NCBI GenBank assembly: GCA_963662285.2
Contig: CAXXMV010000001.1
Span: 32,001 to 96,000, forward strand
Direction of reading: 5' to 3'
Source: a bacterium
Lineage (GTDB): Bacteria > Hinthialibacterota > Hinthialibacteria > Hinthialibacterales > Hinthialibacteraceae
Length of the DNA: 64,000 nucleotides
Below are positions 238 to 55,533 of this stretch, one piece after another (within the stretch, counting starts at the first letter, position 1; each line of letters opens with the position of its first letter). The notes under the pieces are model-generated. The model saw nothing but the letters and a program-made list of their open reading frames with translations. It made no database searches and had not been told where the DNA came from. Made by a program: the position numbers and the translations under genes.

Positions 238-741
238 TTGGTTCTTCCCTATAAAGATTTCATGCCTGAAATTGGCGAGAATGTGTTTATTGCTCCATCA
301 GCCTCGGTTATCGGACAAAGTACGTTGGGTAATAACGTCAGCGTCTGGTTTGGAGCGACCGTGCGCGGGGATATTTCATATATTAGAGTTGGTGAGAACA
401 CGAACATCCAGGATCAATGCGTGCTGCATGTGGGTGATGATCATCCATGCATTATCGGCGATAATGTAGTCGCCGGGCATAAATCAGTAATTCATGGCTG
501 TACGGTGGAAGATGATTGCCTGATCGGCATCGGGGCGATTATTCTCAACGGGGCGGTAATCGGGCGAGGCTCTATCATTGGCGCAGGCTCGTTAATCCCT
601 GAAAATGCTTGCATTGCAGCATCAAGCGTGGTTATGGGGACGCCGGGTAAAGTGATTCGTCAGGTTACTGAAGATGAGCATGATCAACATGTTAAACTGG
701 TGAGAAAATATGTGGGCGTGGCTTGTAAGTATCGGTTTTGA
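238..741 (+). CDS. gamma carbonic anhydrase family protein (YrdA/CaiE-like hexapeptide repeat)
   Basis: VWFGATVRGD, TNIQDQCVLH and GHKSVIHGC metal-ligand motifs. The ORF from 46 runs through a REP, so the likely start is TTG at 238 (VLPYK...). Confidence 0.9.
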   Translation: MVLPYKDFMPEIGENVFIAPSASVIGQSTLGNNVSVWFGATVRGDISYIRVGENTNIQDQCVLHVGDDHPCIIGDNVVAGHKSVIHGCTVEDDCLIGIGAIILNGAVIGRGSIIGAGSLIPENACIAASSVVMGTPGKVIRQVTEDEHDQHVKLVRKYVGVACKYRF

Positions 742-776
742 TATAATTTAATTATTATAAGGGTACTTTCGTTTTA

Positions 777-1080
777 ATAGTTTTCAGTCAAGGGCAGAAA
801 GGACACTGCCCTTGGCGCCCAGCCCTTGGCGCACATGAAAGACGCCCTACAGGTTTGTCCGGAGTTGGTTTGTTGGTAAAAGTCATTGAATTATCATAGT
901 TTTAGTCAAGGGCAGAAAGGACACTGCCCTTGGCGCACATGAAAGATGCCCCTATAGGTTTGTCCGGTGTTGGTTTGTTGGTAAAAGTCATTGAATTATC
1001 ATAGTTTTCAGTCAAGGGCAGAAAATACACTGCCCTTGGCGCCCAGCTGGGCACAATGCGGTCTTGCCCTTGGCGCCCGG
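777..1080. repeat. tandem repeat, about 2.5 units of 105-119 bp, each with a TCAAGGGCAG...CTGCCCTTGGCGC hairpin
   Basis: Units start at 777, 896 and 1001; the sequence between hairpins is nearly identical in units 1 and 2. Confidence 0.9.
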
Positions 1081-1221
1081 CAATTTCGACTATAATAACT
1101 GCGAAATTCCACTTTTATGAATTTGTAGTGGAACCAGGTAAATTTATCTGTAATACTATCCAGGTAATCAGCGTTAATAGGATGATAAAGTATAACGCTG
1201 AAAAAATTGAAATGTGGAATC

Positions 1222-1866
1222 ATGGTAATGGCTCAAGCGCTCATAACCGATATACCGGTTCAATCCGAAGTTTCCGAATCGCAGACCAGTGAAGCGATTC
1301 TGATTGAACGGGCGCAAATGAATCCAGAAGAGTTCGAGCCTTTGTATGAAATGTATTACGAAAGGGTTTATCTCTATCTTCTCAGGCGTTGCGCAAATAC
1401 AACGCTGGCGGAAGATTTAACCGGGGATACCTTTTTTAAGGCGATACACAGTCTGCCCCGTTTTAAGCAACAAAATGTACCATTTCTGGCGTGGCTATTC
1501 CGTATCGCCCATAATCAGATGATCTCCCATTTCCGCAAAACTAAAGTGCGCGATGTATTCCGGATAAAAAAACAACGCGAGAATAAATCACACACTGATC
1601 CGAGAATCCATCTGCTGCGCAAGACAGAACTGGATCAGACCGGAACCGCTTTAGCCAAAATAATTCAGCACCTTAAGCCGATTGATCAACTATTGATATC
1701 GCTACGTTATATAGAAGACCTGAGCATGAATGAAACAGCCGAAGCAGCAGGCATGACTACCGGATCAGCCCGGACGCGTCTGCACCGCGCTTTGAAGAAA
1801 TTAAAAGACCTGATTGAGAATGATGCGCCAGAGATATTAGAACTGATCGGAGGAAATAAATCATGA
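1222..1866 (+). CDS. ECF RNA polymerase sigma-70 factor
   Basis: Region 2 (AEDLTGDTFFKA, FLAWLFRIAHN) and region 4 (LRYIEDLSMNETA...SARTRLHRA); start at ATG 1222 or 1228. Confidence 0.93.
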   Translation: MVMAQALITDIPVQSEVSESQTSEAILIERAQMNPEEFEPLYEMYYERVYLYLLRRCANTTLAEDLTGDTFFKAIHSLPRFKQQNVPFLAWLFRIAHNQMISHFRKTKVRDVFRIKKQRENKSHTDPRIHLLRKTELDQTGTALAKIIQHLKPIDQLLISLRYIEDLSMNETAEAAGMTTGSARTRLHRALKKLKDLIENDAPEILELIGGNKS

Positions 1867-2411
1867 ACCAACAAGATGATTTTTCTCCGTTAGAAAATTT
1901 ACTGCGCCAAACCAGGTTAAATGCGCCGATTAATCCATCGCATAAGGCTGAGTTGCGGGGCAAGTTGCTGGCCGCGCCGCCCAGAGAAGAAATCTTCCGT
2001 CGCAGAATGATATGTGCAACATCGTTCGCAATGGTTCTAATGACTATTGGCATCTTTTGGATGCAAGACAGAGGCCCGATAGTCGGTAGTTTTATATGGA
2101 ACGTTAATCAGAGCAATTCCAAATCGCTTCGCGCCGGGAAATGGTTAAGAACCGGCAACGACAGGTTAACCGCAGTTCTTCAGGACAGGAGTTCGTTGCA
2201 GTTTGAACCACTATCCGAGTTTAAGATTATTTCATCTTCCACCAAAAGAAGAAATGAAAACGCGGTTATCTATTTAAAACGTGGAACAGTAAACGCCATT
2301 GTATCTAATAAAATGAAATATTCATTAATTATCCATACTCCAGACGCGCAAGTACGCGTAGTGGGCACTAAATTCAGAGTAACAGTAGAAGAAATCAAAA
2401 GTCAACAATAG
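1863..2411 (+). CDS. FecR-family anti-sigma factor with C-terminally incomplete FecR domain
   Basis: ATGA overlap with the sigma gene, one TM helix, FecR motifs LRTG..LQDRS, LKRG and HTPDAQVRVVGTKFRV; ends before the TxVxVxEGxV strand. Confidence 0.8.
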   Translation: MNQQDDFSPLENLLRQTRLNAPINPSHKAELRGKLLAAPPREEIFRRRMICATSFAMVLMTIGIFWMQDRGPIVGSFIWNVNQSNSKSLRAGKWLRTGNDRLTAVLQDRSSLQFEPLSEFKIISSSTKRRNENAVIYLKRGTVNAIVSNKMKYSLIIHTPDAQVRVVGTKFRVTVEEIKSQQ

Positions 2412-2449
2412 TTTAACACATTCAAAACATTTGGTTTAAGGAGAATATC

Positions 2450-5400
2450 ATGAGACGGGAATTCGTCATCGGGGGAATTTTTTTGCTAATTTTTATGATT
2501 TTGATGGCATCCGTCACCTATTGGGGAAGCCAGGAAGAAGTCATAACCAAGACATCCGTGATCGTGGAAGAAGGAAAAGTTGAAGTCTCTAGCACATCAG
2601 ATTCCAATGATAAGAAGACATTGAATAAGAATCAAAGAATCAATGCATCAGGTGGAGAATTGCTGGCGGTTGAGAATATCATTCCAACCCCGGAGGATGC
2701 TGCGCTGGATGGAGCGGCAATAGCAGGCGCAATTTCAATGGCCACGTCAACAATCAGCAATGCGACTGAAGACGAATGTTGGATCGCCGGTTATGTTAAG
2801 GGTGAAGATGACAAAAAACTGGTTGGAGTTGAAATCAGCGTGCGCATCATGGATGGAGTAGAACAAGGCGTTTCTTATGATGGTTCTGATGAAGATGAAA
2901 ATGTTAAAACAGCCAAGACCAACCAGGAGGGATATTACACCATCGCTCTGGACGGCCCCCATGAATATCAGATAAGTTCAACGCCGAGTGAAGGTTATCT
3001 TAAACTGATTGAGCGGGTTACGCTTACAGAAGAGAACAAGACGCTGGCCAAGCATTTTGTACATCCAATCGCGGCATTCTCAGTACGCGGTAAAGTATTG
3101 GATAAAGAGACCGAAGAACCAATCGAAGGCGCTAGAGTCGCTTTGATAATGCAGCATCCTGACGTTCATCCTCAACAAAAAATAGAAAGAGCTGAAACCA
3201 ATGAAAAGGGCGAGTATAACATTACCCGCGTCGCTAGGGGAACTTTCCGCCTCGAAGCCAACAAAGAGGGATACGTCAAATTCAGCCCTTACGGGAAAAA
3301 ATTAGGCGACACCAGTCCACTGCTGAATTTTCAGGTTAATGAAAGTACGCAAAAGAAAGAATACATCATCAAGATGGAACCGGGTTCAACCGCCAGGTTC
3401 AAGGTAGTTGACGCCAATAAAAAACCAATTCCTGAAGTATATGTAAAAGTGATGCGTGATGCGCAATACTTTGCTTATATTGATAGCTGCATGACAGATC
3501 AAAATGGCGAGGCGGAAAATGACCGCCTGCCCAAAGAGACGCTTTATGCAGTAGCGTCTCATGAAGATTTCGGTCAAGGACGCAGCAAAAAATTTGAACC
3601 GGGTTCGGCGGATGATATACCTCTGGTCGAAATAATATTACAAGAGACCGGCTCTATTTCGGGGAAAGTTACTGATGCTGATGGCAACCTGATGGAAGGA
3701 ATCAACATCAATGCGGCATACATATCCCAAGATATGGATGTGGAAAATGTAGAAGAAAAAAGGACTCAGACCGGGGCAGACGGACTTTATTCTTTTAGTT
3801 TGCTAAGCGCAGGAACATACCGGGTTTTTGTATCCAATAATAGTTATGGCGTCAATGCAAATAAAGTACGGACTATTGAAGTACTGAGTGGAGTGGATCG
3901 AACCGGGGTAGATTTTACTCTCGGTAATATGGTTGAGTTGCGCGGAAAAGTCATCAATCAGGATGACGAGCCGGTTGAAGGCATCTACGTACATGCAGTG
4001 TCATACTTAAAAGATGGCGGCATGCCCGGCAGTGGAAGCGATGAAACTGATGAAAATGGTGAATTCCACGTAAAAGACGCTCCCCCGGGAGACGAGGTGC
4101 AATATCAATTGCAAGGCAAAGGATACGCTCATACCATCATAAGACATCCAATGGATGGTGAATATAAAATTCTCAAGATTAAATCGGCGGGAACAGTTAA
4201 AGGCGTGGTAATGAACACAGAGGGAGAACCAGTCGAAGGCGCCCAGGTTTATCCCATCCGTTTGTTTTCAAATAGTCCTTATCACAATAAATACAAAACA
4301 ATTAACACCGGTATAGATGGTTCGTTTGAATTTACCAATCTCGATCCAATGGACTACCGTTTTTGCGCATCCGCTGAGGGATATGTCCAAAAAGAGAGCG
4401 CGACTGTCTCGCTGGATCAGGGAGAGAGCATCGATTCTGTAATTATTGAACTGGAGACCGGGTTGGAAATCAGGGGCCGGGTGGTTGATCCCAATGGTCA
4501 ACCGTTGCCTGATGCGCTAATTTCTCTTCTCTCTCTTACTATAAACAATAACTCTGGAAGTTGGAGCAGTTCGGGTTTCGAGATGGCTAATTTCCCTGAA
4601 ACAGCAATGAGCGATCAGGAAGGTAATTTCGTTATACCCGATTTTCCACCAGACGGCGACACGCTTATAGTACAACACCAAGGCGTTGCGCCGAAACTGT
4701 TTCAGATCGTCCCCGCCATGTTGGATCAACAGCCGTTTACCATCCAAATGACTGAAGGCGGCGCGATTGAAGGCCTTGTTTTAGACCGGACCAAGAGTCC
4801 TATATCAGGCGCGGAAATCCGGGTGCAGAATTATCCGGAGAATATGTTCCGCTACGTGGCTAAAACTGACGCCAAGGGAGAATACCGCATTGAACACCTG
4901 GGGCCTATGTCTTATATGGTGCAAAAAGTCGTCTCAATATACGCCAAGAATAGTGAGCAATCATTTGTTTCAAATGGTCCGGGAACAGACGACTCGCTGT
5001 TTGTGACTGTTGTAGAAGGTCAAACGGTGCGCGCTGATTTCGGCGCTGGCGAAGGCGCTGATGTTCGAGGAACGGTTTATAAGCGGGGAGAACCTGTCCC
5101 TGGCGCAAGAGTTGGAATCCAAACAGTGGGAACAACAGGTGATGACAATAGTTTATTTATGAATGTCGTCACGGATGAACAAGGCGTTTTTGTTTTTAAT
5201 GCAATCCCTGAAGGCGAATATACCCTCTTCACAAATACAAACGCAACAGCCTTTCTACATATTTCCCGCGCTGAAACATATACTAACATAAGCATCTCAG
5301 CCAATCAGGATGAATATACCCAAGACCTTTATATCGCCACTTATGAAATTCAGGGAACGGTGGTTGACGCAGAGTCGGGAGAACCGATTCCAAACGCTAC

Positions 5401-6196
5401 CATCCAAAGCAATCTGTATGTCGGAAAAACCAGAGCCCCGGTAAAAGGGGCAGCAAGTTTAAACACCGTTTCGGATGGAGAAGGCCGATTTACCTTGTAT
5501 CCCCAGGAAGCGGGTGAGTTCAACCTGGCGGCTATTGCTGATAAGTACAGCCCTAAAAAGTTCAGCGTGACGGTTGAAGCCGCTGAACCGGGATCAACGG
5601 CGCCGACTCAGCAGATACAGGTAACCATGCAAAAAAATGACATGGTATTGATCGCCCGGTTATTCTTCAATGGCAATCCAGCGTTTTGCAGTTGGGCGCA
5701 ATTCAGACAAAAGATGGAATTTGGAGAACAAAGATTAATTGAAACCAATGTTGAACCCGGCGTTTACCGCGTGTTGGGTCTGCCCGAAGGAGAATCAGAA
5801 TTCTTTGTCAGAGCCTATGTTAATAACAAGGTTATGTATTCAACTACGCCGCGGGTTGTGTTGACTTCCGGGCAGGAGACGGAAGTTACTTTGAATTTAT
5901 TTGAAGTCATGCGATATACTCTCACCCTTGAAGCGCCGGATAACGAGATGCTTGAATCTGTGGCCACTGCGGAAGTATTGGATTTCCCTGAACCATTCAT
6001 AAAGACGCTTCATTTGAGTCGATACACCGATACTACGGGCAAGAATCTCGCCCAGCTCGAGATTCCCTCTACGGCGCGTCGCGTGTTGGTCAACGTTCCT
6101 GGATTTATGCCGGTTGAGTTTGATCCGGTGGCTATGGCTGTAGGTGGAGAGAATGCATTGGAGAAGATGATTACTATTAAACTTATGCCGCAGTGA
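2450..6196 (+). CDS. membrane-anchored protein with N-terminal FecR C-terminal fragment and many carboxypeptidase-regulatory-like (Cna-B-like) beta-sandwich repeats
   Basis: RBS AAGGAG, N-terminal TM, TSVIVEEGKVEV, then repeated GxVxDxxGxPxxGAxV...TDxxGxF/Y units. Confidence 0.85.
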   Translation: MRREFVIGGIFLLIFMILMASVTYWGSQEEVITKTSVIVEEGKVEVSSTSDSNDKKTLNKNQRINASGGELLAVENIIPTPEDAALDGAAIAGAISMATSTISNATEDECWIAGYVKGEDDKKLVGVEISVRIMDGVEQGVSYDGSDEDENVKTAKTNQEGYYTIALDGPHEYQISSTPSEGYLKLIERVTLTEENKTLAKHFVHPIAAFSVRGKVLDKETEEPIEGARVALIMQHPDVHPQQKIERAETNEKGEYNITRVARGTFRLEANKEGYVKFSPYGKKLGDTSPLLNFQVNESTQKKEYIIKMEPGSTARFKVVDANKKPIPEVYVKVMRDAQYFAYIDSCMTDQNGEAENDRLPKETLYAVASHEDFGQGRSKKFEPGSADDIPLVEIILQETGSISGKVTDADGNLMEGININAAYISQDMDVENVEEKRTQTGADGLYSFSLLSAGTYRVFVSNNSYGVNANKVRTIEVLSGVDRTGVDFTLGNMVELRGKVINQDDEPVEGIYVHAVSYLKDGGMPGSGSDETDENGEFHVKDAPPGDEVQYQLQGKGYAHTIIRHPMDGEYKILKIKSAGTVKGVVMNTEGEPVEGAQVYPIRLFSNSPYHNKYKTINTGIDGSFEFTNLDPMDYRFCASAEGYVQKESATVSLDQGESIDSVIIELETGLEIRGRVVDPNGQPLPDALISLLSLTINNNSGSWSSSGFEMANFPETAMSDQEGNFVIPDFPPDGDTLIVQHQGVAPKLFQIVPAMLDQQPFTIQMTEGGAIEGLVLDRTKSPISGAEIRVQNYPENMFRYVAKTDAKGEYRIEHLGPMSYMVQKVVSIYAKNSEQSFVSNGPGTDDSLFVTVVEGQTVRADFGAGEGADVRGTVYKRGEPVPGARVGIQTVGTTGDDNSLFMNVVTDEQGVFVFNAIPEGEYTLFTNTNATAFLHISRAETYTNISISANQDEYTQDLYIATYEIQGTVVDAESGEPIPNATIQSNLYVGKTRAPVKGAASLNTVSDGEGRFTLYPQEAGEFNLAAIADKYSPKKFSVTVEAAEPGSTAPTQQIQVTMQKNDMVLIARLFFNGNPAFCSWAQFRQKMEFGEQRLIETNVEPGVYRVLGLPEGESEFFVRAYVNNKVMYSTTPRVVLTSGQETEVTLNLFEVMRYTLTLEAPDNEMLESVATAEVLDFPEPFIKTLHLSRYTDTTGKNLAQLEIPSTARRVLVNVPGFMPVEFDPVAMAVGGENALEKMITIKLMPQ

Positions 6197-6199
6197 TTG

Positions 6200-6293
6200 A
6201 TCACTCCTCTTCCCCAAGTTTTCGGGAAGAGGAGTTTTGGGTTTTAGTAGTGGGTGGTTCTTTGGTGGGTCGGTGAGGCGCGACCCACCCTAC
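6200..6293. repeat. composite REP-like element, copy 1 of 3
   Basis: CTCCTCTTCCC..GGGAAGAGGAG hairpin, T/G-rich linker, GGTGGGTCG..CGACCCACCCTAC; other copies at 7144-7235 and 8465-8549. Confidence 0.85.
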
Positions 6294-6452
6294 ACGCTGA
6301 TTCGGATGTTCTTTGCGCTCTTTTTGTGAAACATTATTCCGGCTTTTCCAAAAAGATAACTCTTCATCCAAAGTCATATCCTTTAATTTTTCCCATATTT
6401 TGATTGATCCCAGCCGTTTCATCTCGACGCAATCAATTGTTTTAGTTTTCAT
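6201..6452 (-). CDS. small hypothetical protein coupled to PIN gene (putative antitoxin); C-terminus reads into the repeat
   Basis: MKTKTIDCVEMKRLGS start overlaps the end of the PIN reading frame; the tail RVGWVAPHRPT is translated REP sequence. Confidence 0.6.
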   Translation of the reverse strand: MKTKTIDCVEMKRLGSIKIWEKLKDMTLDEELSFWKSRNNVSQKERKEHPNQRVGWVAPHRPTKEPPTTKTQNSSSRKLGEEE

Positions 6453-6909
6453 CGAAAATCACCTCTAATGGACTATGAATAGCAATAGGTTTATAGCCTA
6501 ACTTTTCATTTACTATATTATATTTCGAAATCTTTTGATAATTTACAATATGGTGAAAATTCCAACTTACGATTAGATTGCAGTTTTATACCGTTGCTAA
6601 AGCCACATGAAGAGCATCGGCCATCCATCGCGAACCAATAACATTTGAATCGATATAAGCATGTTGAAGAATAATTGCCTCTTGTGTTATTTCAATGAAC
6701 TCAGCATTATATCTAATTTCCTCAAAAAAATCCTTCACGTATTCAGGAGCCGACTTAATCTCTTCGCTAACAACAGATGATAGAACAAGAAAGAAATATC
6801 CATTATCGGCGTTGCGAAAAAATGACCGGCTTGATTTTGAAAACTCCTCATCAAAAATCCCACCTATTACTGAGGTGTCAGTATAAATTCTTGGAACTAT
6901 TTCAGCCAT
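6442..6909 (-). pseudogene. PIN-domain (VapC-like) nuclease gene with in-frame TAA at 6586-6588
   Basis: IYTDTSVIGG...DALHVALATV*NCNLIVSWNFHHIVN...IHSPLEVIFDEN*; the typical PIN C-terminus continues in frame after the stop. Confidence 0.85.
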
Positions 6910-7143: not shown

Positions 7144-7235
7144 ATCACTCCTCTTCCTCTTGTTTTAGGGAAGAGGAGTTTTTGGGTTTGAGTGGGTGGT
7201 TTTTTGGTGGGTCGGTGAGGCGCGACCCACCCTAC
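7144..7235. repeat. composite REP-like element, copy 2
   Basis: Direct repeat of 6200-6293. Confidence 0.85.
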
Positions 7236-7374
7236 GCGCTGGATGATGGAAAAATTCAAATAAAATACCCAGGAGCGGGCAAAAGCGGTTATGATGAAAA
7301 TATGACACAGCGTTAAAGGGATTTAGAAGAACGCTGGATGGGCCGTAATAGTAGTTATTTTTGGAAGTTGCCTT

Positions 7375-8438: not shown

Positions 8439-8464
8439 TATTGGGCATACAGGCTCAAACAAAA

Positions 8465-8549
8465 ATCCCTCTCTCACAATTTTGGGAAGAGGGATTTTTG
8501 GTATTAGCAGGTGGTTCTTCGGTGGATCAAAATGCGCGACCCACCTTAC
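8465..8549. repeat. composite REP-like element, degenerate copy 3
   Basis: atccctctct..gggaagagggat, linker, ggtggatc..cgcgacccaccttac. Confidence 0.7.
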
Positions 8550-9595: not shown

Positions 9596-9872
9596 AGTAG
9601 GTTCCTTTGTTAGTGTTTTTAGAGTATTTTTGGCATTATAACATGCTGATTAGAGATTTGAAGTTAATACATAAAAATTGCAATTTCCCTCTAGCAGCGT
9701 GTCAATTAAACAAACGACTTGGATGATTAGTTGATTTGTTTTTAGGTGGTTCTTATTCATATTCTGATTGCATTTTATCAATTTCACATGGATAATGGAA
9801 AGTTTAAATAAATCATAAAATAGATTAAGAATTTTAAAACCACTTACCCGCTTGCGCGTTATATTAAGCGTG

Positions 9873-10505
9873 ATGCAAATACAAGCCATGCAAATACCAA
9901 CGGATGAACAGCAGCATTGGGAAACTCTGAGCGATGAGCAGGTTATGCTGCGCTATGCTCAGGGCGACAGTGATGCGTTCGATGAACTTTACCAGCGGCA
10001 TAAGTCGTCGGTATATGCGTTCATCCGCAATTTCATCTACGACGCCAACGCGATTGACGATCTGTTTCAGGCGGTGTTTCTCAAAATGATACGTAACCGG
10101 CTTAACTTTATACCGAAAGCCAAATTCACCACCTGGTTATTCACCATCGCACGGACCACCTGCATTGACGCCATGCGCAAGACCAAGACATCGCGAGTTA
10201 TACAACTTTTTCCGGATCAATATGATGAAGACGCCGGGATGGGCATGGCGGATTTTCCCGATTGCGAACCACAGCCCAGGGAGAAAGGCTATCAAACCGA
10301 GTTGCAACACGCCATAGATGGAGCGCTGGAAATGCTTCCTCAGGAGCAACGCGAGGTGCTGCTGCTGCGTGAAAAGACTGAACTGACCTTTCAGGAAATC
10401 GGCAAAATTACCGGATGCTCCACCAATACGGCCAAGAGCAGAATGCACTACGCCCTGTTGGCCATACGTAAAGAGTTGCAAGAGAAAGGCTTCGACGAGC
10501 CATGA
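9873..10505 (+). CDS. ECF RNA polymerase sigma-70 factor
   Basis: GDSDAFDELYQRH, DDLFQAVFLK, FTTWLFTIAR, LTFQEIG..TAKSRMHYA; start at ATG 9873 or 9888. Confidence 0.93.
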   Translation: MQIQAMQIPTDEQQHWETLSDEQVMLRYAQGDSDAFDELYQRHKSSVYAFIRNFIYDANAIDDLFQAVFLKMIRNRLNFIPKAKFTTWLFTIARTTCIDAMRKTKTSRVIQLFPDQYDEDAGMGMADFPDCEPQPREKGYQTELQHAIDGALEMLPQEQREVLLLREKTELTFQEIGKITGCSTNTAKSRMHYALLAIRKELQEKGFDEP

Positions 10506-12148
10506 GATGTGAAACGGCAAGACGCATAATGATGGATCGGCTCTACGAAACAGTTGCGCCTGATCACTTGAAGAAACTCGAAGCGCATTTGCTAAGTTGT
10601 CCGCAGTGCGCCGCTGAGTGGGATGATGTGCAACGCGCACATAACATGTTGGCGTCTGGATTGACGCAGGAGGTACCTATGCATTTGGATCAGGCCATAC
10701 TATCACAAAGCAACGCGCAAGCAGCGCCCGTTCCAATAAAAAGCCGTTTTGGATGGCGCCGTATAGCGGCGGCGGCTTCGTTTCTAATAGTTGTTGGAAT
10801 CTCATACCAGGTTTGGCAAAAAGATGATCCGGGATTAATCATTCAAAGTGATTTATCACAGAATATTTCAGTTCAATCTGACATTCCAACGAACAAAGAA
10901 GAGGCGCTTGCTTCATCAGAGAGGATTCAACTTAAAGCATTAGGCTATTCTAGCGCAGCGCCCGCTCCATCGTTAATGAAGAACAAACAGGATGCAAAAC
11001 TAACCAGGTCGCAGCCGCAGCAGTCAATTCAACCAGCGGTTTTGGCGCCGCGCCATGAATCAACCAGCAATGCTGAAGAGTATTTCCGCACCAGTCTCAA
11101 ACTTTATAACAAGGCATTCGCTACAACCGGGGATGATAAACGGGTTCTGTTGCGCAGCGCCATTATTATGCTGCAAGATATTGAGACGCGCTATCCACAG
11201 GACGGCCAGTGGATCGCTATGTCGATGATACTGATAGCCGACTCATACCGCGAGTTGGGCGACAAAGATAAGGCTATTGAGACTTACCAACATATAACGG
11301 ATCAATTCAGCGATTTGCCGGTTTATACGCGGCAGGCGCGGGCATCGATGCTTAAACTGATGCTGGACAAGCCGCAAGTGGACATTGATCAGGCGGAGAA
11401 AGTTCTGGTGCAGTATCAGGAGCAACAACCTTCACCGACGGAGTTTGTGAAACTGGCGCTGGCGTATTCGGCCAAGGTAAATTCGAGCAGCCCGGAACAT
11501 GCTTATGAGTGGTATAAAAAAATAAAGAATTATCTTCCGCCTCAGCATCCCCTGATAGAAAAGGCTAACAGAGAATCCAGGGATATCGAGCTGAAATTGC
11601 GCAACCATTCATACATCATGGATTGGAAAATCGTGGGGCCGCTGGAACAGGCGACTTTACTTGAAACTGATAGAACAGGTTCCTACGAAAAATGGTTCAG
11701 TTCAAAAAGCCGCAAATTTGGTAAAGAAAATACATACATAATCGAGAACAGCAAAAGATACTGTCTTGTTCCGGAAATTGATCTGGTTCATCTATTCAAC
11801 CAGGCGCCGCCCCGGTCATGCGCATTCGCTTATACCAAAATATACAGCCCCAAAAAACAGTACGCCCATCTGATTCTGGGATTCAGCGATGGGTTGCGCA
11901 TCTGGCTTAACGGAGATCATGTCTCAGGCGGACTGGAAAACCATAGGTATAAACGGGATTCGGCCTCAGTCAAATGCAGCCTGAAAAAGGGATGGAATGA
12001 ATTGCTTTTTAAGAGTTATTACCACAAGGATCGGGCTGATGAAAACCGGGAATGGAAATTCAGCGCACTGCTGGTCAACAACAACGGTGAACTGATGCCT
12101 GAATTGAGATACAGCGTAGATGCAACTACATCAACCAGGAATAAATAG
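10502..12148 (+). CDS. zinc-finger (ZAS) anti-sigma factor with TM helix, TPR-like region and C-terminal beta-sandwich
   Basis: ATGA overlap; HLLSCPQC (HxxxCxxC); TM AAAASFLIVVGISY; TPR-like helices; WKIVGP...DGLRIWLNG...LKKGWNELL. Confidence 0.85.
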   Translation: MRCETARRIMMDRLYETVAPDHLKKLEAHLLSCPQCAAEWDDVQRAHNMLASGLTQEVPMHLDQAILSQSNAQAAPVPIKSRFGWRRIAAAASFLIVVGISYQVWQKDDPGLIIQSDLSQNISVQSDIPTNKEEALASSERIQLKALGYSSAAPAPSLMKNKQDAKLTRSQPQQSIQPAVLAPRHESTSNAEEYFRTSLKLYNKAFATTGDDKRVLLRSAIIMLQDIETRYPQDGQWIAMSMILIADSYRELGDKDKAIETYQHITDQFSDLPVYTRQARASMLKLMLDKPQVDIDQAEKVLVQYQEQQPSPTEFVKLALAYSAKVNSSSPEHAYEWYKKIKNYLPPQHPLIEKANRESRDIELKLRNHSYIMDWKIVGPLEQATLLETDRTGSYEKWFSSKSRKFGKENTYIIENSKRYCLVPEIDLVHLFNQAPPRSCAFAYTKIYSPKKQYAHLILGFSDGLRIWLNGDHVSGGLENHRYKRDSASVKCSLKKGWNELLFKSYYHKDRADENREWKFSALLVNNNGELMPELRYSVDATTSTRNK

Positions 12149-12188
12149 CAGATTAATTCCTCCTATAAGCCCGTGGAGGTTAAGAGGG

Positions 12189-12330
12189 AATGTCATTAAG
12201 TTTAGTTATTGAAATCCCCCCCCTCACCTTAACCCTCTCCCGGCGGGAGAGGGGATAACATATAGGAGGGAGTTGAAGCACCGAAGGGCAACCCCCCTCT
12301 AACTCCCCCCAGACTTGGGGGGAGAATTTG
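12189..12330. repeat. cluster of palindromic repeats (CCCTCACCxTAACCCTCTCCC..GGGAGAGGGG and CCCCCTCTAACTCCCCC..GGGGGGAG types)
   Basis: Related copies at about 27125-27160, 47440-47475 and 60842-60930. Confidence 0.7.
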
Positions 12331-12407
12331 ATCATCAATGTTTGTTCATAGAACCAAACGGTTACAAATAAACAAGAGAAGGCAGAAGGATAATACGAGG
12401 CGTCATC

Positions 12408-15400
12408 ATGAAAACAAAACTAGTACTAATCAGTATATTTATATTATTTCAAACATTGGTTCAGGCGGAAGTCAAACTGGACAAAGAGGCCATGAAATTC
12501 GAGCGGACGGAGAATTCGCTGAGCGTTTATCTGCCCCTGCAAAGCGACCAGGACAAACCTGTGTTCGGCGATATGACGGTTACGCTATTGGATAGCGCGT
12601 ATAATTCATTGGCGCAGACATCGAAGAAGACCATGCTGATGAACGGCGGCCATATCGAAACCGTGGCGCTGCCTATCTCGGTCAACACGCCCAAGATCGA
12701 AGATTGCTTCATTCGCGTTGATTTTATGGGACATATCTGGTTGAAGGGTTTCACTAAGCAGAATACCGGACATGAGATTCACCTGATCGGGCAGAACCGT
12801 TGGATCGCCGGAAGCCGTGGGTCGCTACGCGTTATCACTACCAGCAGCGGTAATGACGAACCGGTGGCTGATGCTTCGATCCAACTTTTAATCAAGCAAT
12901 CCGATGGCAAAACCGCCATAGAGGTTAATGATAAGACAGATCAGTCGGGAACTGCGGCGCTTGGTTTTGATATTCCCAAAACGCTGCTTGGAGACAGTAC
13001 TCTGATATTGACCGTGAAATCTCCCCTGGGAAGCAATACCGTTACATCCAAGGTCCAGTTCGTCCCCGGAACGCGCGTCTTTTTGACTACTGACAAACCG
13101 GTATACCAGCCGGGGCAGGTTATGCATATACGCGCCTTGGCGGCGCATAAAGTTTCGGGAGAACCGCTGGCTGAGCATGAAGTGCTGCTGGAAGTATTTG
13201 ACGGCAAAGGCAACAAGGTATTTAAGAAGCAGCCCGTGACATCTGAATTCGGCATTGTTTCGGCTGATTTTCAATTGGCCGATGAAGTGAACCAGGGCGA
13301 ATACCGCATCGTAGCGTCGCTTAATAATGAGACCACCGAAAAGACAGTGCAGGTCTATGAATATGTGCTGCCCAAGTTCCGGGTTGACGTCAAGACCAAG
13401 GAGAAATATTACGCTCCAGGCGATGAGGTGAGCGGCTCTATTACGTCGCGCTATTTCTTCGGCAAACCGACGGCGGGCGCCAAGGTTACTATCACCGCCA
13501 ATTGCTTCGATGTGGGTTTCAATGCATTCGCTGAAGTTACGGTCGTGACCGATGAAGCAGGCAAGGCGGAATATAGTTTCACTATTCCAGACAAACTGGT
13601 GGGGCAGCCGCAGTTCAAGGGAAGCACCATTGTGCAGATGGATGTACGGGTGCGCGATACTGCTGACCATGAAGAACAGAAAATGCATACATTTCATGTA
13701 TCGGTCGATCCGTTGCAGATCGAGGCTATACCCGAAAGCGGCCGGTTGGTTCCAGGGGTGGAGAACGAAGTATTTCTTTCGGCGTCGTATCCAGACGGCA
13801 GCGTGGCTGCGCCGGAACTTACTATCAAATCCAGTTATTTATCTGAAACGGTCACCGTGCAATGCGATAAGAACGGCATCGCTTCAATTCGCTTTACGCC
13901 TCCTGTTGTGGATAAAAAGGACTTGGTTACGATGGTGCAGAACGTGGCGCAGCCTGCGGTTGATGCTTCTGTTTTGCATATCTCAACTGAGATGAATGGC
14001 AAGACTATTAACATCGTTAAGAATTTAGATATCGGCGCCACTATCGAAAATCTGTTGCTCAGAGTTGATAGAGGGGTATACAGCGTGGGCGATGCTTTGG
14101 AGATCAGCGCCTTATCCAGCAGCGCCCCCGGCGAGACGGTCTTTCTGGATATCATCAAAAACCAGCAAACCGTGTTGACCAAGACCATGCAATTGAAGGA
14201 TGGGCGCTCTGCGCTTACCCTGCCGCTGGATAACCAACTGACGGGCAGTTTGACGCTTAACGCTTATATCATAGGTTCCGGTGGAACCATGCTGCGCGAC
14301 GTGCGGCAGGTTATTGTGCTGCGCAGCGACGATCTCAAGATCGATATCCGGCCTGATCAAAAGCAGTATGAACCGGGGCAACCCGCCAAACTGCTGATCG
14401 CCGTAACCAACCAGCAAGGCGAGCCGGTGCGCGCCGCTTTGGGAATGAACATCGTTGATGAGAGCGTCTACAGCCTGAGCGAGAAGGAACCGGGGCTGGC
14501 TAAAGTCTTCTTCGCCATCGAACGCGAACTGATGCAACCCAAGGTCGAGATTCATGGCTATCAACTGGACAAGGTGGTGCGCCTGTCGGCCAACCAATAT
14601 AAGGACAACGCTCAGTTATCCAAGGCGCTGTTGGCTAAATTGGATAATTTCAGTGAATACGCGATTAATATCGATACTGCGAAAAAACGGGATCAACAAG
14701 CGGATAATGATATACGTCAGATTCATGGACAATTACGATTTAAGATGCTTCCCCTTCTTTCACAGCCCATGGACGTAGCCGAAGTTTTGTTGTTGCATGA
14801 TATGCAGCGCGGCTCGCTGCCTACCATTGACCCCTGGGGACGAGCATACCAGTTAGTTCCTGATAAGGATAAAACACAGTATAGAATTTTCACGAAAAAG
14901 AAGCCTAATCGAGATCAAGATTCCGAAACATATTTCACAAACCTATTTATCGTCAGCAAGGGACGCGATGGGCTGCTTGGAACAGATGATGATAAACGTA
15001 CGTCAACTTATTCCCGGCCAGTTATCATAAGCGTTACCGATGCGCTCTTCGATGATTCAGGGCAAATGCAAGGATATGCCAGCAGTATTAGAGATGCTCT
15101 TTTTATCAAAAGTAAAGGAGGGCCGCTTAGCAATGCAACTAAAGAAGAATTGAAGCATATAAAATTAGGTGGATTTGCTGATACCTCTTATACCTATGCA
15201 TTTGAAGACAACAAACATAATTCCTTCATAGCGGATAGATCAATAATGCGCGGCGATCCTTCATTCAAGACGGTCGGAATTGATTTCATGAAATTCGGAG
15301 CAGCTGAGAATCGACGCGGGGGTGGTGTAAGGGGCGGGGTGGCTAATGGAGTTGGTGGATATGGCATGGGCATGATGGGCGGTATGGGTATGATGGGCGA

Positions 15401-18046: not shown

Positions 18047-18198
18047 GCAAACTGAATTAACATTTATTCAAATACATTACGCCGCTTTTTAAGTGTATAA
18101 TTCAGACACTGCGCTTTATCTGCAGCGCTTAGTTATGAGAAGATAATTAGAAAATCAAGATAGTGTTTTTGATTTTGTTTTTTCCTGGAGTATTATGC

Positions 18199-18798
18199 AT
18201 GTTTTTTAATAATCAAAATAAATCTTTTACTCTGATCGAACTGTTGATTGTGGTCGCCATTATTGGAATATTGGCGGCTATTGCCGTACCCAATTTTCTC
18301 AACGCGCAGATTCGCGCCAAGGTGGCGCGCACCATGTCGGATATTCGTTCATTAGCGACGGCTCTGGAAATGTACAACACCGATAAGGGAACCTATCCAC
18401 CCGGCCGAGCCACCTGGGCTATTTTCGGACTGGATAAGTTAACCTCTCCCGTGGCGTATATGTCATCTATCCCGATTGATCCATTTGCGCCTGCGGAGAG
18501 CAGCGCGATCCGTAGTTTGGGAGGATATGGCTGGTTTCCCGAGGTTCTGCCTTACTATGTTTATTTATGGGAAAAGAATCCTGCTGATTCGTTGAACAGC
18601 GCTATCAGCCGCGACTATCTTTTCCGCAAGGGCGTTATGAAAGACCCGACCGGGTCGCCTCCTCAAATATTCCATTATTTCCAGATACGGGCTATGGGAC
18701 CCAACGGCCAGGGGGATTATTCAATGGCCTATGATGCATCAAACGGCATTATGAGCGCTGGTGATATATCGTATCATGGACCCGGAGCGGGATTTTGA
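18199..18798 (+). CDS. prepilin-type N-terminal cleavage/methylation domain protein (GspG-like)
   Basis: RBS GGAG; KS|FTLIELLIVVAIIGILAAIAVPNF; IPIDPF and RAMGPNG motifs. Confidence 0.9.
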   Translation: MFFNNQNKSFTLIELLIVVAIIGILAAIAVPNFLNAQIRAKVARTMSDIRSLATALEMYNTDKGTYPPGRATWAIFGLDKLTSPVAYMSSIPIDPFAPAESSAIRSLGGYGWFPEVLPYYVYLWEKNPADSLNSAISRDYLFRKGVMKDPTGSPPQIFHYFQIRAMGPNGQGDYSMAYDASNGIMSAGDISYHGPGAGF

Positions 18799-18946
18799 GC
18801 GTATTGGGTGGTTCTCAAAACCAAGCGCCCCAATACGGTTGTTAACCGCTCTATAATAAAACCTCTCCATACCTATGAATTATTCAGGCGCTGAGTAAAA
18901 ATATCATCAAAACAATATCAGATTAATTTATTAGATATGGAGATAT

Positions 18947-21397: not shown

Positions 21398-21420
21398 ATC
21401 GACAAAAGTGGAGTATAAAA

Positions 21421-23055
21421 ATGCAAACTACCCGACGAAATTTCTTAAGAACAACCGCTGGCGCTGTAGGATTAGCATCCATACCGGGCTTGGCCTGTCA
21501 ATCAGCCCAAGCGGGAAAAACAGATAAACCTAATATTCTGCTTATTATGGCGGATGATATGGGATATGCAGACGCCCAATGTTATGGCGGCGACGTGCGC
21601 ACTCCCAACCTGTCGGCTTTAGCGAATAACGGCGTCCGGTTTACGCAGCATTATTCAACCGGGCGCTGCTGGCCATCAAGAGCCTGCATCTTATCGGGCT
21701 ATTACGCCCAGAACATACGCCGCGACGTTATGCCTGGAATCAAAATGGGGAACCGTCCAGCCTGGGCGCCTTTGCTTCCAGAAATGCTGAAGCCGCACGG
21801 ATACCAGTCGTATCATTCCGGCAAATGGCATATAGATGGAACGCCCAAAGATAGCGGCTTCAAGCGTTCATGGGGCAGCGAAAGAAGCGGCGCCGACTGG
21901 GATCGATTTTTTAATACCCAGGCATGGAAAGAGGATGAGTTCACTGCGCCGACCAAGCCGGGAGAGCAGTATTACTCCACCGTGGCCATCGCCGATCACG
22001 CCATCCAGTGCCTTAAACTACACGAACGGGATTACAGGGATCAACCGTTCTTCCAATACATGGCATTCTATTCACCGCATTTTCCACTTCATGCTTTGCA
22101 GAAGGATATTGATTCTTACCGTGACGCTTATCTTGAAGGATGGGATGTAATAAGAGAGCGGCGCTGGAAACGCATGAAAGAGATGGGCTTGATCAATGCT
22201 CCCCTTTCTGAACGCGAGACGGATGTGGTTCCCAGTTGGAATCTCAAGCCTGATGAATTGAAAGAGCAAATCGGTCCGGGCGAAGCCTCTCATGCGGTTG
22301 CCTGGAATACGCTTACCCAAGAGCAAAAAGAATTTCAAGCCAACAAAATGGCCATCCATGCTGCTATGATTACGCGCATGGATTTGGAGATTGGCCGCGT
22401 GGTCCAGCACCTTAAAGATACTGGCGCCTACGAGAATACGTTGGTTATGTTCATGAGCGACAATGGCGCCAGCGCGGAACAGTTAATCCGGGGCGGCGGA
22501 CATGATCCAAGTGCGCCTATGGGTTCAGCCAAAAGTTATTTATGCTTAGGACCGGGCTGGTCTACCGCCGCCAATACGCCATTCAGATTCCATAAGCACT
22601 GGAACCATGAAGGCGGCATCTCTTCACCCATGATCGCCCATTGGCCCAAGGGAATTTCCGCCAAAGGTGAACTACGTCATAATCCGACTCATTTCATTGA
22701 CATCGTTCCAACAATTATGGAACTGGCGGGAGACGCTGAACCGCATACCAATAAGATTCAAGGCGCCCCTGAGCGACCGGGGATCAGTTTGGTTCCGGCA
22801 TTCGCCAAAGATGGAACGGTCAAACACAAAAGTTTGTGGTGGTGTCATCAAGGCAACCGCGCCATCCGTATGGGAGATTGGAAACTATCAGGCCGCAAAG
22901 GCAAAGACGGCAAGTGGGAACTCTATAATCTCAAAGTGGATCGCAGCGAGACCAACGACCTGGCATCAGTTCATCCAGATAAAGTCGAGACGCTATCCAA
23001 GCAATGGGATAGTATAGCAGAGAGATTTCTTGAGGATTTAAGTTCCACCCGGTAG
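21421..23055 (+). CDS. arylsulfatase (Cys-type, Tat-exported)
   Basis: TRRNFL Tat motif; PNILLIMADDMG; CWPSR (CxPxR); GKWH; SDNG. Confidence 0.93.
   Translation: MQTTRRNFLRTTAGAVGLASIPGLACQSAQAGKTDKPNILLIMADDMGYADAQCYGGDVRTPNLSALANNGVRFTQHYSTGRCWPSRACILSGYYAQNIRRDVMPGIKMGNRPAWAPLLPEMLKPHGYQSYHSGKWHIDGTPKDSGFKRSWGSERSGADWDRFFNTQAWKEDEFTAPTKPGEQYYSTVAIADHAIQCLKLHERDYRDQPFFQYMAFYSPHFPLHALQKDIDSYRDAYLEGWDVIRERRWKRMKEMGLINAPLSERETDVVPSWNLKPDELKEQIGPGEASHAVAWNTLTQEQKEFQANKMAIHAAMITRMDLEIGRVVQHLKDTGAYENTLVMFMSDNGASAEQLIRGGGHDPSAPMGSAKSYLCLGPGWSTAANTPFRFHKHWNHEGGISSPMIAHWPKGISAKGELRHNPTHFIDIVPTIMELAGDAEPHTNKIQGAPERPGISLVPAFAKDGTVKHKSLWWCHQGNRAIRMGDWKLSGRKGKDGKWELYNLKVDRSETNDLASVHPDKVETLSKQWDSIAERFLEDLSSTR

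Positions 23056-49728: not shown

Positions 49729-55533
<5,805 letters not shown>

What the first reader, a model, noticed from the sequence alone, without database searches (positions are those of the whole stretch)
1222..6196. Split-FecR ECF signalling system: one FecR domain divided between two membrane-anchored proteins
Seen: the anti-sigma (1863-2411) carries FecR motifs up to VRVVGTKFRVTVEE and then stops. The next gene has its own RBS (AAGGAG), its own TM helix and a different frame. Right after the TM it carries TSVIVEEGKVEV...KTLNKNQRI (2552-2640), the strands that normally complete a FecR domain, followed by about 1150 aa of Cna-B/carboxypeptidase-regulatory-like repeats. Established: FecR-family anti-sigmas such as Pseudomonas FoxR self-cleave at this Gly-Thr, the fragments stay associated, and they normally partner a TonB-dependent receptor; none is present here. 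Inference: the domain is rebuilt in trans by beta-strand complementation and the long repeat protein is an envelope-spanning sensor. Pulling or proteolysis of that stalk would unzip the domain and release the sigma, conceptually like RsgI or adhesion-GPCR GAIN domains. The second TM and RBS argue against a simple frameshift.
Basis: partly seen in the sequence, partly recalled or inferred. Interest (0 to 1): 0.85.

Follow-up and report, generated by a model that had tools for sequence, protein, structure and literature searches.

The report
FecR anti-sigma naturally split in two
In this uncultured bacterium and its relatives, the sensor domain of a FecR-type sigma-factor inhibitor is encoded as two neighbouring membrane proteins that probably click together outside the cytoplasm, which gives a natural two-gene version of a switch that well-studied bacteria make by cutting one protein in two.

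Summary
Window 1222-6196 holds an ECF sigma gene, a 182-aa FecR-type anti-sigma and a 1248-aa protein. The anti-sigma's Pfam FecR match stops at profile position 83 of 97. The large protein has its own ribosome site and membrane helix, then the strands that normally finish the FecR fold, then about 10 CarboxypepD_reg domains.

It is not a frameshift. The same split occurs in 4 diverged paralogs of this genome. It also occurs next to 41 of 42 short truncated FecR matches in 30 relatives (the other lies at a contig end).

The two pieces look like one domain. A profile of the second piece finds canonical single-chain FecR proteins just after their GT motif. A natural fused homolog has one helix and a continuous fold matching PDB 4M0N and PupR 6OVK. 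The complex model scores 0.83 against 0.01 for the best control.

The best reading is a genetically pre-split FecR regulator, working without a TonB transducer, in which the large protein shields the anti-sigma from proteolysis. The signal is unknown, and the envelope-spanning, pulling idea is untested.

I rate it a new variant of a known kind. No paper found describes it. An earlier scan note (e1-1451930, unchecked) reports a comparable split on other DNA.

The parts
1222..1866 (+). ECF sigma factor gene (214 aa from the ATG at 1222; a TTG at 1207 is also possible)
   Evidence: Pfam Sigma70_r2 6.5e-17 and Sigma70_r4_2 9e-11. NCBIfam sigma70-ECF 88.4 bits (cut-off 42.9). Its stop overlaps the next start.
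1863..2411 (+). First half of the regulator (FecR-N, 182 aa): short cytoplasmic N-terminus, one membrane helix, incomplete periplasmic FecR domain
   Evidence: PF04773 at 40.3 bits, residues 95-176, profile positions 3-83 of 97. Same truncation in 3 paralogs and 42 matches in relatives.
2004..2066 (+). Membrane helix of FecR-N (residues 48-68)
   Evidence: Kyte-Doolittle window 19, peak 1.96.
2364..2369 (+). Gly168-Thr169, the motif at which canonical FecR and FoxR self-cleave
   Evidence: G, T and the following F are invariant in 39 of 39 FecR-N sequences. The cleavage site Gly181/Thr182 of E. coli FecR is given in PMC12036975 (passages). Cleavage here is not tested.
2438..2443 (+). Ribosome-binding site AAGGAG, 6 nt before the ATG of the third gene
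   Evidence: Read directly from the sequence.
2450..6196 (+). Second half of the regulator plus sensor (1248 aa)
   Evidence: ORF. CarboxypepD_reg 2.1e-85, 10 stretches. Profile A6 finds it and 49 further N-terminal matches (3 in this genome, 46 in relatives).
2462..2524 (+). N-terminal hydrophobic helix of the third protein (about residues 5-25): signal-anchor or, less likely, a cleaved signal peptide
   Evidence: Hydropathy peak 2.61 within residues 1-28. A conserved MR.W plus roughly 20-residue hydrophobic stretch is visible in the alignment of 39 sequences.
2534..2662 (+). Complementing module (residues 29-71: ...TSVIVEEGKVEVS...KTLNKNQRINASGGEL)
   Evidence: Consensus V.V.V.EG.V....L.AGE across 39 sequences. 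Its profile hits full-length FecR directly after the GT. Predicted contacts run from residues 29-49, 52, 58, 64 and 66-71 to FecR-N residues 158-180.
2783..5569 (+). Array of about 10 CarboxypepD_reg (transthyretin-like beta-sandwich) domains
5570..6193 (+). C-terminal ~200 aa with no Pfam match; ends in a G[FY].P[VI][ED]F.P motif shared with one subfamily of relatives and with the fused homolog
   Evidence: no family found. C-termini are listed.

Best explanation
The locus is a three-gene ECF signalling cassette in which a FecR-type sigma regulator is encoded in two pieces.

Piece 1 (1863-2411) is a type II membrane protein. Its short cytoplasmic head presumably holds the sigma factor. Its periplasmic part is a FecR juxtamembrane beta-domain that lacks its last strands.

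Piece 2 (2450-6196) is inserted by its own N-terminal helix. About 10 residues after the membrane it supplies a beta-hairpin plus further strands, which pair with the last two strands of piece 1 (around AQVRVV and GTKFRVTV). This rebuilds the fold seen in PDB 4M0N and in PupR 6OVK. The rest of piece 2 is a long array of beta-sandwich domains that acts as the sensor.

The proposed mechanism follows E. coli FecR. There, autoproteolysis yields two fragments, and the C-terminal fragment protects the N-terminal one. I infer that bound piece 2 shields the free C-terminal end of piece 1. Loss, displacement or degradation of piece 2 would expose piece 1 to a periplasmic protease and then to the RseP-type site-2 protease, which frees the sigma factor.

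The second helix exists because a separately made C-terminal piece needs its own export signal. E. coli solves the same problem by Tat co-export of the pre-assembled fragments.

Shown by computation: the split, its conservation, the homology of the two pieces to one domain, and the predicted complementation. Inferred: sigma binding, protection from proteolysis, and the nature of the signal.
For: 1. The split is conserved.
- 4 of the 9 FecR matches in this genome stop at profile position 83-89 (one with a TAA inside the match).
- Each of the four has the same sigma / short FecR / TM-plus-repeat-protein layout, although they share only 20-36% identity or are undetectable by BLASTP.
- In 30 relatives, 42 FecR matches in short frames stop at position 81-87.
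- 41 of 42 loci read here have the downstream helix plus module; one lies at a contig end.
- 41 of those 42 matches in relatives have a profile-A6 match at most about 530 nt downstream on the same strand.

2. The pieces are complementary and homologous to one domain.
- A profile of the post-helix module was searched against 33,730 six-frame ORFs of this genome. The best hit outside its training set is a full-length FecR (E 3.7e-6) at residues 213-246, overlapping the end of that protein's Pfam FecR match at 133-222.
- Among 1.84 billion representatives, canonical ~330-aa FecR proteins match the module internally. P0075 has FecR at 113-204 and the module at 193-233. P0119 has FecR at 129-210, the module at 193-241 and FecR_C at 253-320.
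- The consensus of 22 canonical FecR proteins plus the fused domain reads V.GT.F.V....V.V.EG.V....TL.AGE without a break.

3. A natural fused form exists.
- A 1361-aa protein (L031) has one helix only and a continuous ...LGTVFDVDVSSTPPTTAKINVKAGKV....
- Its domain model has mean pLDDT 86.2, and the module strands are confident.
- The model matches 4M0H/4M0N (E 3.4e-8, TMq 0.68) and PupR 6OVK (E 1.9e-7, TMq 0.70). The next hit has E > 0.1.

4. The complex model supports binding.
- Score 0.83 (runs 0.77, 0.83, 0.84); best of 3 controls 0.01.
- The mark was reached by 58 of 80 solved complexes and 2 of 110 mismatched pairs. These counts hold only roughly, because my own alignments were used.
- The runs agree in at least 97% of contacts, and the partner's pLDDT is at least 83.

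5. The genome has the downstream machinery but not the classical partner.
- An RseP-like M50 protease and 4 S41 proteases are present.
- No STN domain passes its cut-off, and no TonB receptor lies near any of the four loci.

6. The literature supplies the paradigm. E. coli FecR cleaves at Gly181/Thr182. The fragments stay together. Without the C-terminal fragment the N-terminal one is cleaved and fec is constitutively on (PMC12036975: abstract, discussion and passages).
Against: - Nothing is experimental.
- The complex job tests halves of a fold that has been solved as a single chain (4M0N, 6OVK). Its pass may therefore reflect likeness to those structures rather than binding of these two chains.
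- The module profile alone does not reach significance against the PDB. 4m0n_A scores E 0.21, although at the expected residues 105-151, amid unrelated hits.
- No Pfam anti-sigma domain is detected in the 47-residue cytoplasmic head of piece 1, so sigma binding rests on gene order.
- No signal, regulon or promoter was identified. The sigma-70 promoter scan was no better than shuffled sequence.
- Whether the N-terminal helix of piece 2 is kept or cleaved off is not settled.
- 5 of the 46 N-terminal A6 matches in relatives have no listed Pfam FecR match upstream and were not examined.
Confidence: 0.7

Rival explanations
1. The two proteins do not assemble. The short FecR protein is a self-sufficient, trimmed anti-sigma. 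The large repeat protein is merely the first gene of its regulon, or an independent envelope protein. Its N-terminal motif is a relic of an old gene fission.
For: The module alone is not significant against the PDB (E 0.21). The complex pass could come from likeness to single-chain structures (caveat stated). No experimental data exist.
Against: A relic would decay, but it has not.
- The module keeps V39 and G42 invariant and V44 nearly invariant in 39 sequences that share only 13-43% identity overall.
- The module always sits about 10-20 residues after the helix.
- The break is at the same loop in all loci.
- The fused homolog puts the module back in line without the second helix.
Confidence: 0.12
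2. Same complementation, but the N-terminal helix of the large protein is a cleaved signal peptide. The large protein would then be a soluble periplasmic or secreted partner, like the free C-terminal fragment of E. coli FecR, rather than a second membrane anchor.
For: Some paralogs have a plausible signal-peptidase site, for example ...GLSLWA/APP in the C2 paralog. The window protein has LMA/SV.
Against: In most of the 39 sequences the hydrophobic stretch is about 20 residues long with no small-x-small site after it (judged by eye). No signal-peptide predictor was available.
Confidence: 0.15
3. Assembly error, frameshift or pseudogene: there is really one continuous gene.
For: The only run that covers the junction (X1) does so at low depth (4x), and it may be the assembly's own source, so it is not independent.
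Against: - The same split is seen in 45 loci of 19 genomes assembled separately.
- Intergenic distances and frames vary between loci, and every one has a start codon plus helix.
- An independently built contig spans 1200-3200 with 0 differences and 0 gaps.
- A read-through product would carry a second helix that inverts the topology.
Confidence: 0.01

Closest known systems
E. coli FecR, P. aeruginosa FoxR, P. capeferrum PupR (cell-surface-signalling sigma regulators)
   Same: - Same Pfam family (PF04773) and same juxtamembrane beta-fold: 6OVK_R has TMq 0.70 to the fused homolog, and profile A3 hits it at E 9e-7.
- Same GT motif.
- Same logic of two non-covalently joined pieces, in which the distal piece protects the membrane-anchored one from a protease cascade ending in RseP (PMC12036975: abstract, discussion and passages read).
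   Different: - The two pieces are made from two genes, not by autoproteolysis.
- The break is one strand after the GT.
- The distal piece has its own membrane helix instead of Tat co-export.
- There is no FecR_C/STN-like domain and no TonB-dependent transducer partner.
- The distal piece carries a ~1100-aa beta-sandwich array.
[quoted passage not shown] This family does encode them separately.
BDI_1681 of Parabacteroides distasonis, putative anti-sigma factor (PDB 4M0N, 4M0H)
   Same: Best structural and sequence match. A3 hits it at E 2.8e-8 on residues 23-101. The module aligns to the next residues, 105-151, at a non-significant E 0.21. Foldseek gives E 3.4e-8 with rmsd 2.0 over 128 columns.
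   Different: It is a single chain carrying both parts, and it comes from a classical Bacteroidota anti-sigma.
Natural fused homologs (1361-aa protein of L031, and P0152 at 43% identity)
   Same: Same sigma neighbour, same FecR domain, same CarboxypepD_reg array. L031 also ends in the same C-terminal motif.
   Different: They are one polypeptide with one helix and 8 residues (SSTPPTTA) where the split forms have stop, spacer, start and helix. They are rare: 2 clusters found. In the sigma tree L031 sits inside a 98/98-supported clade of 26 rows that are otherwise all split, which suggests a secondary re-fusion. The tree is midpoint-rooted, so this is not proven.
RsgI anti-sigma factors with SEAL domains (Bacillus, Clostridium)
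   Same: The mechanism is alike. The two pieces of a juxtamembrane domain are held by a beta-sheet that spans them, and their dissociation is the regulated step before site-2 cleavage (abstract of 10.1101/2023.06.27.546760 read; PMC10328401 seen in a search listing only).
   Different: The fold is unrelated (SEA-like). The pieces arise by autoproteolysis of one chain. The organisms are Gram-positive.
RseA/RseB of E. coli
   Same: A separate periplasmic protein shields an anti-sigma from site-1 cleavage (as summarised in the discussion of PMC12036975).
   Different: RseB is a separate folded protein that binds RseA. It does not complete a domain of RseA.

Membership tests
FecR-type sigma regulators (Pfam PF04773; FecR/FoxR/PupR) | FecR domain match above Pfam's gathering score | tested here: met
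   40.3 bits against a cut-off of 24, residues 95-176 of the 182-aa protein.
FecR-type sigma regulators (Pfam PF04773; FecR/FoxR/PupR) | Complete juxtamembrane beta-domain within one polypeptide | tested here: not met
   The match ends at profile position 83 of 97, and the chain ends 6 residues later. The missing strands are at the start of the next protein.
FecR-type sigma regulators (Pfam PF04773; FecR/FoxR/PupR) | Conserved Gly-Thr self-cleavage motif | tested here: met
   G168 and T169 are present and invariant in 39 of 39 sequences. Whether cleavage happens cannot be tested with these tools.
FecR-type sigma regulators (Pfam PF04773; FecR/FoxR/PupR) | Single-pass type II membrane protein encoded next to, and co-oriented with, an ECF sigma gene | tested here: met
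   One hydrophobic helix at residues 48-68. The sigma stop overlaps the anti-sigma start.
FecR-type sigma regulators (Pfam PF04773; FecR/FoxR/PupR) | Recognisable N-terminal sigma-binding (anti-sigma) domain | tested here: inconclusive
   No Pfam family other than FecR at E <= 1. The cytoplasmic head is only about 47 residues, but it is conserved among 6 orthologs.
Cell-surface signalling trio (ECF sigma, FecR, TonB-dependent transducer) | C-terminal FecR_C (PF16344, STN-like) domain that contacts the transducer | tested here: not met
   No PF16344 hit in either protein. A canonical control, P0119, has it.
Cell-surface signalling trio (ECF sigma, FecR, TonB-dependent transducer) | Adjacent TonB-dependent transducer with an STN signalling domain | tested here: not met
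   The 7 TonB barrel matches in the genome are all far from the four split loci. The only STN match is below the cut-off, at 25.8 against 28.4 bits.
CarboxypepD_reg repeat proteins (PF13620) | Repeated PF13620 domains above the gathering score | tested here: met
   281.6 bits, 10 stretches, mapped to about residues 110-1040. 12 of 12 relatives tested also carry it.
RsgI/SEAL autoproteolytic anti-sigma factors | SEA-like juxtamembrane fold | tested here: not met
   The fold search of the fused domain returns only FecR-type structures at E < 0.1.

The most novel reading that the evidence does not exclude
The cassette is a TonB-independent mechanical or envelope-state sensor. The ~12-domain beta-sandwich rod of piece 2 would reach across the periplasm from its own inner-membrane anchor. 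Strain on it, or its degradation, would pull its first hairpin out of the FecR fold of piece 1. The GT in piece 1 may still self-cleave, so the domain could even be a three-piece assembly with a trapped strand of about 13 residues. That would make this lineage a natural, genetically separable model of strand-unzipping signalling, with four orthogonal copies in one cell.
Probability: 0.15. Interest if true: 0.85.

Novelty: new variant of a known kind. Interest (0 to 1): 0.62.

Why it matters
Recent work on E. coli FecR and on RsgI suggests a common switch. A juxtamembrane domain exists as two non-covalently joined pieces, and their separation is the regulated step.

In those systems the pieces come from self-cleavage of one chain. 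It is therefore hard to vary one piece alone, and the FecR authors speculated that separate genes would compromise folding.

This family shows that evolution has made, and kept, the separate-gene version. I found about 80 clusters at 50% identity in a library of 1.84 billion proteins. It occurs in 19 of the 26 genomes of its order, with up to 6 copies per genome.

It offers several things:
- a natural system in which each half can be expressed, deleted or swapped on its own;
- a rationale for how the distal piece is exported without Tat (it has its own helix);
- an example of FecR signalling without a TonB-dependent transducer;
- a natural fused control.

For annotation, it explains a class of "truncated FecR" genes and "carboxypeptidase regulatory-like domain" giants that would otherwise be read as unrelated or broken.

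Tried and rejected
- Pfam on the first 94-120 residues of protein 3 alone found no FecR match. The missing 14 profile positions are too few to score.
The protein atlas gave no reliable taxon either.
- phmmer of the fused domain against the PDB found nothing relevant; only profiles and the fold search did.
- Profile A6 against the PDB was not significant: 4m0n_A at E 0.21 among ribosomal L6 and other chance hits.
- The search for homologous proteins with protein 2 at near lengths gave only the protein itself and one relative at 86% identity, a limit of the word index.
- The tree of the FecR-N domains was unresolved. The two full-length outgroups sat on branches of 5.2 and 6.7 inside the ingroup and the bootstrap had not settled, so it gives no root and no order of events.
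- The sigma tree left out 6 type-A sigmas, including the window's own, because my extraction filter missed them.
- The sigma-70 promoter and terminator scan of 700-6700 was no better than shuffles. No + strand terminator lies between the genes.
- No ECF-type promoter search was done.
- Sequencing runs: no RNA holder is listed. The DNA contig that spans the junction may be the assembly's own source.
- Supplements of the ECF classification paper (PMC7826278) were closed, so I could not see whether this sigma group and its context are described there. Its main text does not mention it.
- Paper searches for a split or two-gene FecR found none.
Full report
**1. What is there**

Window 1222-6196 holds three co-oriented genes.

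- The first gene (1222-1866) is an ECF sigma factor, with Sigma70_r2 at 6.5e-17 and region 4. It passes only the general ECF model of NCBIfam.
- Its stop overlaps the start of the second gene (1863-2411).
- The second gene encodes 182 aa with one hydrophobic helix at residues 48-68. Its PF04773 FecR match (40.3 bits, cut-off 24) covers residues 95-176 but only profile positions 3-83 of 97.
- The chain stops 13 residues after the Gly168-Thr169 motif.
- After a 38-nt spacer containing AAGGAG, and in another frame that is closed upstream by TAA, the third gene (2450-6196) begins.
- It encodes 1248 aa: an N-terminal hydrophobic helix, then TSVIVEEGKVEV...KTLNKNQRI, then CarboxypepD_reg domains (2.1e-85, 10 stretches).
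- These domains map to about residues 110-1040. The last ~200 residues have no Pfam match.

The only correction is that the break lies one strand after the GT, not at it.

**2. Not an artefact**

The window's own genome (7.29 Mb, 8 contigs) has 9 FecR matches. Four of them stop at profile position 83-89, one with a stop codon inside the match.

All four have the same layout: sigma, then a short FecR of 182-209 aa ending 9-19 residues after GT.F.V, then a 973-1248-aa protein that starts with a helix and the motif V.V..G.V. The paralogs are old. FecR-N pairs share 22-31% identity or are undetectable by BLASTP, and the large proteins share 20-36%.

In 30 relatives the Pfam search is bimodal. By my count from the table, 42 matches in frames of 113-316 aa stop at position 81-87, while the others reach 94-97.

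I fetched 38 of these loci. Together with the 4 own loci, 41 of 42 have the downstream frame with helix plus motif. One (L024) lies 131 nt from a contig end, and one (L022) has a disrupted FecR-N frame but an intact partner.

Independently, a profile of the N-terminus of the large proteins (A6) finds a match at most about 530 nt downstream, on the same strand, of 41 of the 42 truncated matches.

A separately built public contig spans 1200-3200 with no difference. It may come from the source sample and its depth is about 4.

**3. The two pieces are one domain**

(a) Homology within the genome. I built an HMM from the post-helix module (52 alignment columns, 39 sequences) and searched 33,730 six-frame ORFs of this genome.
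- After its four training members, the best hit is a full-length FecR anti-sigma (E 3.7e-6) at residues 213-246. That overlaps the end of the protein's own Pfam FecR match at 133-222.
- The next hit is a second full-length FecR (E 0.084) at residues 190-226, where Pfam matches 111-198.
- Everything else has E >= 0.7.

(b) Homology in the global library. Profile A6 against 1.84 billion representatives gave 164 hits at E <= 0.001.
- Of the 150 listed, 80 (hand count) match with their first ~80 residues, and most are 600-1320 aa long. All 12 that I scanned carry CarboxypepD_reg.
- Another set consists of canonical FecR proteins of about 280-460 aa that match internally, directly after the Pfam FecR match. 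P0075 has FecR at 113-204 and the module at 193-233. P0119 has FecR at 129-210, the module at 193-241 and FecR_C at 253-320.
- The consensus of 22 such proteins reads V.GT.F.V....V.V.EG.V....TL.AGE in one piece. That equals the tail of protein 2 followed by the module of protein 3.

(c) A natural fused form. Relative G019 encodes a 1361-aa protein (L031).
- It has a single helix, and ...VAVLGTVFDVDVSSTPPTTAKINVKAGKVLLIKGDESKTLAAGRR... runs without interruption.
- It has the same repeat array and C-terminal motif.
- An AlphaFold2 model of its domain has mean pLDDT 86.2. The junction lies in a loop between strands 97-102 and 110-116, and blocks 91-150 have pLDDT 90-97.
- Foldseek returns only FecR-type structures: 4M0H/4M0N (E 3.4e-8, TMq 0.68, rmsd 2.0 over 128 columns) and PupR 6OVK_R (E 1.9e-7, TMq 0.70). 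The next hit has E 0.12.

(d) Complex prediction. I submitted protein 2 residues 65-182 with protein 3 residues 26-80, each with a 39-row alignment.
- Score 0.83 (runs 0.77, 0.83, 0.84); best of 3 controls 0.01.
- The mark was reached by 58 of 80 solved complexes and 2 of 110 mismatched pairs. This holds only roughly, because my own alignments were used.
- The runs agree in at least 97% of contacts, and the partner's pLDDT is at least 83.
- The contacts pair protein 2 residues 162-167 and 169-175 with protein 3 residues 43-47 and 35-41. That is a hairpin laid against the last two strands.
- These are halves of a fold already solved as a single chain, so the pass may reflect that likeness. It supports binding but does not show it.

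**4. Distribution and history**

The phylum as held has only 35 genomes.
- N-terminal A6 matches occur in 19 of the 26 genomes of the window's order: 13 of 19 other genomes in family f1, 3 of 4 in f2, 2 of 2 in f3, plus the window's own.
- They occur in 0 of 9 genomes of the other three families.
- Record titles name only uncultured bacteria, so I cannot name the taxon.
- Fused forms with the repeat array are rare: 2 clusters in the 5.8-billion-protein collection, although only 8000 word-sharing candidates were scored.
- In a sigma tree of 34 rows (6 type-A sigmas, including the window's, were not extracted), the fused system nests inside a 98/98 clade of 26 rows that are otherwise all split. 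This favours a secondary re-fusion.
- That tree is midpoint-rooted, and the FecR-N tree was unresolved, so the order of events is open.
- Two fused proteins with a different, Cys-rich C-terminal part (P0123, P0092) carry at the junction ...KAMKKELLQGVAIALLLVSVESG.... This looks like a remnant start plus a short hydrophobic stretch.

**5. Genome context**

- The genome has an RseP-type M50 protease, seen as a split match in a 595-aa frame.
- It has four S41 (Prc/Ctp-type) proteases over the cut-off.
- It has 7 TonB barrel matches, none near the four cassettes.
- It has no STN domain over the cut-off.
- A twin-arginine motif before the helix of protein 2 is present in the window (FRRRM) but in only 2 of 6 orthologs. 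Tat export is therefore not a conserved requirement.

**6. How it most likely works**

In E. coli, FecR self-cleaves between Gly181 and Thr182. The soluble C-terminal fragment is co-exported with the membrane-anchored N-terminal fragment by Tat and protects it. When TonB and FecA pull the C-terminal fragment off, the N-terminal fragment is cut by an unknown periplasmic protease and then by RseP, which activates FecI. Without the C-terminal fragment the cascade runs constitutively (PMC12036975: abstract, discussion and passages read).

The cassette here has the same two-piece state written into the genome.
- Shown by computation: the pieces, their conservation, and their fit.
- Inferred: protein 3 shields the free C-terminal strands of protein 2.
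- Inferred: loss of that shield starts site-1 and then site-2 cleavage.
- Inferred: the sigma factor is then released.
- The second helix is explained as the export and anchoring signal that a separately translated distal piece needs. The fused homolog lacks it, as expected.
- The GT is invariant (39 of 39), so it may still cleave. That would leave a trapped strand of 8-26 residues. This is untested.
- The signal sensed by the beta-sandwich array is unknown. I regard ligand binding, or damage- or force-induced removal, as equally open.

**7. Comparison with what is known, and novelty**

By domain the system is a FecR-type regulator. It fails three features of the classical family: it does not have the whole domain in one chain, it has no FecR_C, and it has no TonB transducer partner. 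I therefore file it as a variant that works like FecR rather than as a standard member.

RsgI/SEAL systems are a mechanistic analogue with an unrelated fold (abstract read).

Five paper searches were run. None of them, including the three aimed at the question, found a description of a naturally split FecR, and the main text of the ECF re-classification does not mention one (its supplements were closed). The FecR authors explicitly contrast self-cleavage with "encoding them at separate loci".

I did not check it. If it holds, splitting of FecR is recurrent.

**8. Verdict**

- Novelty: a new variant of a known kind.
- Interest: 0.62.

Noticed in passing
window 772-1100: Three copies of a ~105-nt intergenic repeat unit just upstream of the sigma gene. 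Each contains the palindrome CAAGGGCAG...CTGCCCTTG. Related pieces lie at 36-81. It may be a REP- or MITE-like element, or a regulatory array.
   Followed up: partly
window 6200-6299 and 7144-7241 (weaker copy 8460-8505): A second dispersed ~100-nt repeat with its own hairpins (87-96% identity) in the intergenic regions downstream of the cassette. It also creates look-alike short ORFs on the minus strand.
   Followed up: partly
window 9852-17981: A second ECF cassette: a sigma (217 aa), a zf-HC2/TPR anti-sigma (548 aa) and a 1857-aa bacterial alpha-2-macroglobulin with a TED domain.
   Followed up: no
window 18163-23055: A prepilin-type N-methyl protein, a GH127 beta-L-arabinofuranosidase with an F5/8 type C domain, and a sulfatase. 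This points to a polysaccharide-degrading lifestyle.
   Followed up: no
window 49729-55533: A 1934-aa ORF overlapped by four ORFs of 826-919 aa in other frames on both strands. This suggests a strongly repetitive or compositionally biased gene.
   Followed up: no
G000:C1:482363-482650 (L009) and relatives: A different FecR-domain family: secreted proteins of 640-1190 aa with the FecR domain right after a signal peptide and no sigma neighbour seen. It is present in many relatives.
   Followed up: no
P0123, P0092: Single-chain FecR proteins with a Cys-rich, repeat-rich C-terminal part. Their junction carries ...KAMKKELLQGVAIALLL..., which looks like a fossil start codon and a degenerate helix of a once-split pair.
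   Followed up: partly
P0001, P0014, P0019, P0029, P0035, P0042: Very long proteins (1519-3183 aa) with 7-22 separate matches to the module profile. These may be tandem V.V.EG.V-type strand repeats, and were not examined. P0005 (1231 aa, 11 stretches) was scanned and is an LPXTG protein with 11 SpaA domains, so at least some of these are chance-like matches.
   Followed up: partly
G020:C4:1112942, G013:C32:47793, G021:C364:3033, G022:C217:7363, G020:C1:710601: Five N-terminal matches to the large-protein profile that have no Pfam FecR match listed upstream. Their FecR-N partner may be too diverged, or they may be orphans.
   Followed up: no
L022 (G016:C144): In this relative the short FecR frame runs on for 42 residues past the GT and overlaps the partner gene. 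It may be a frameshifted copy.
   Followed up: no
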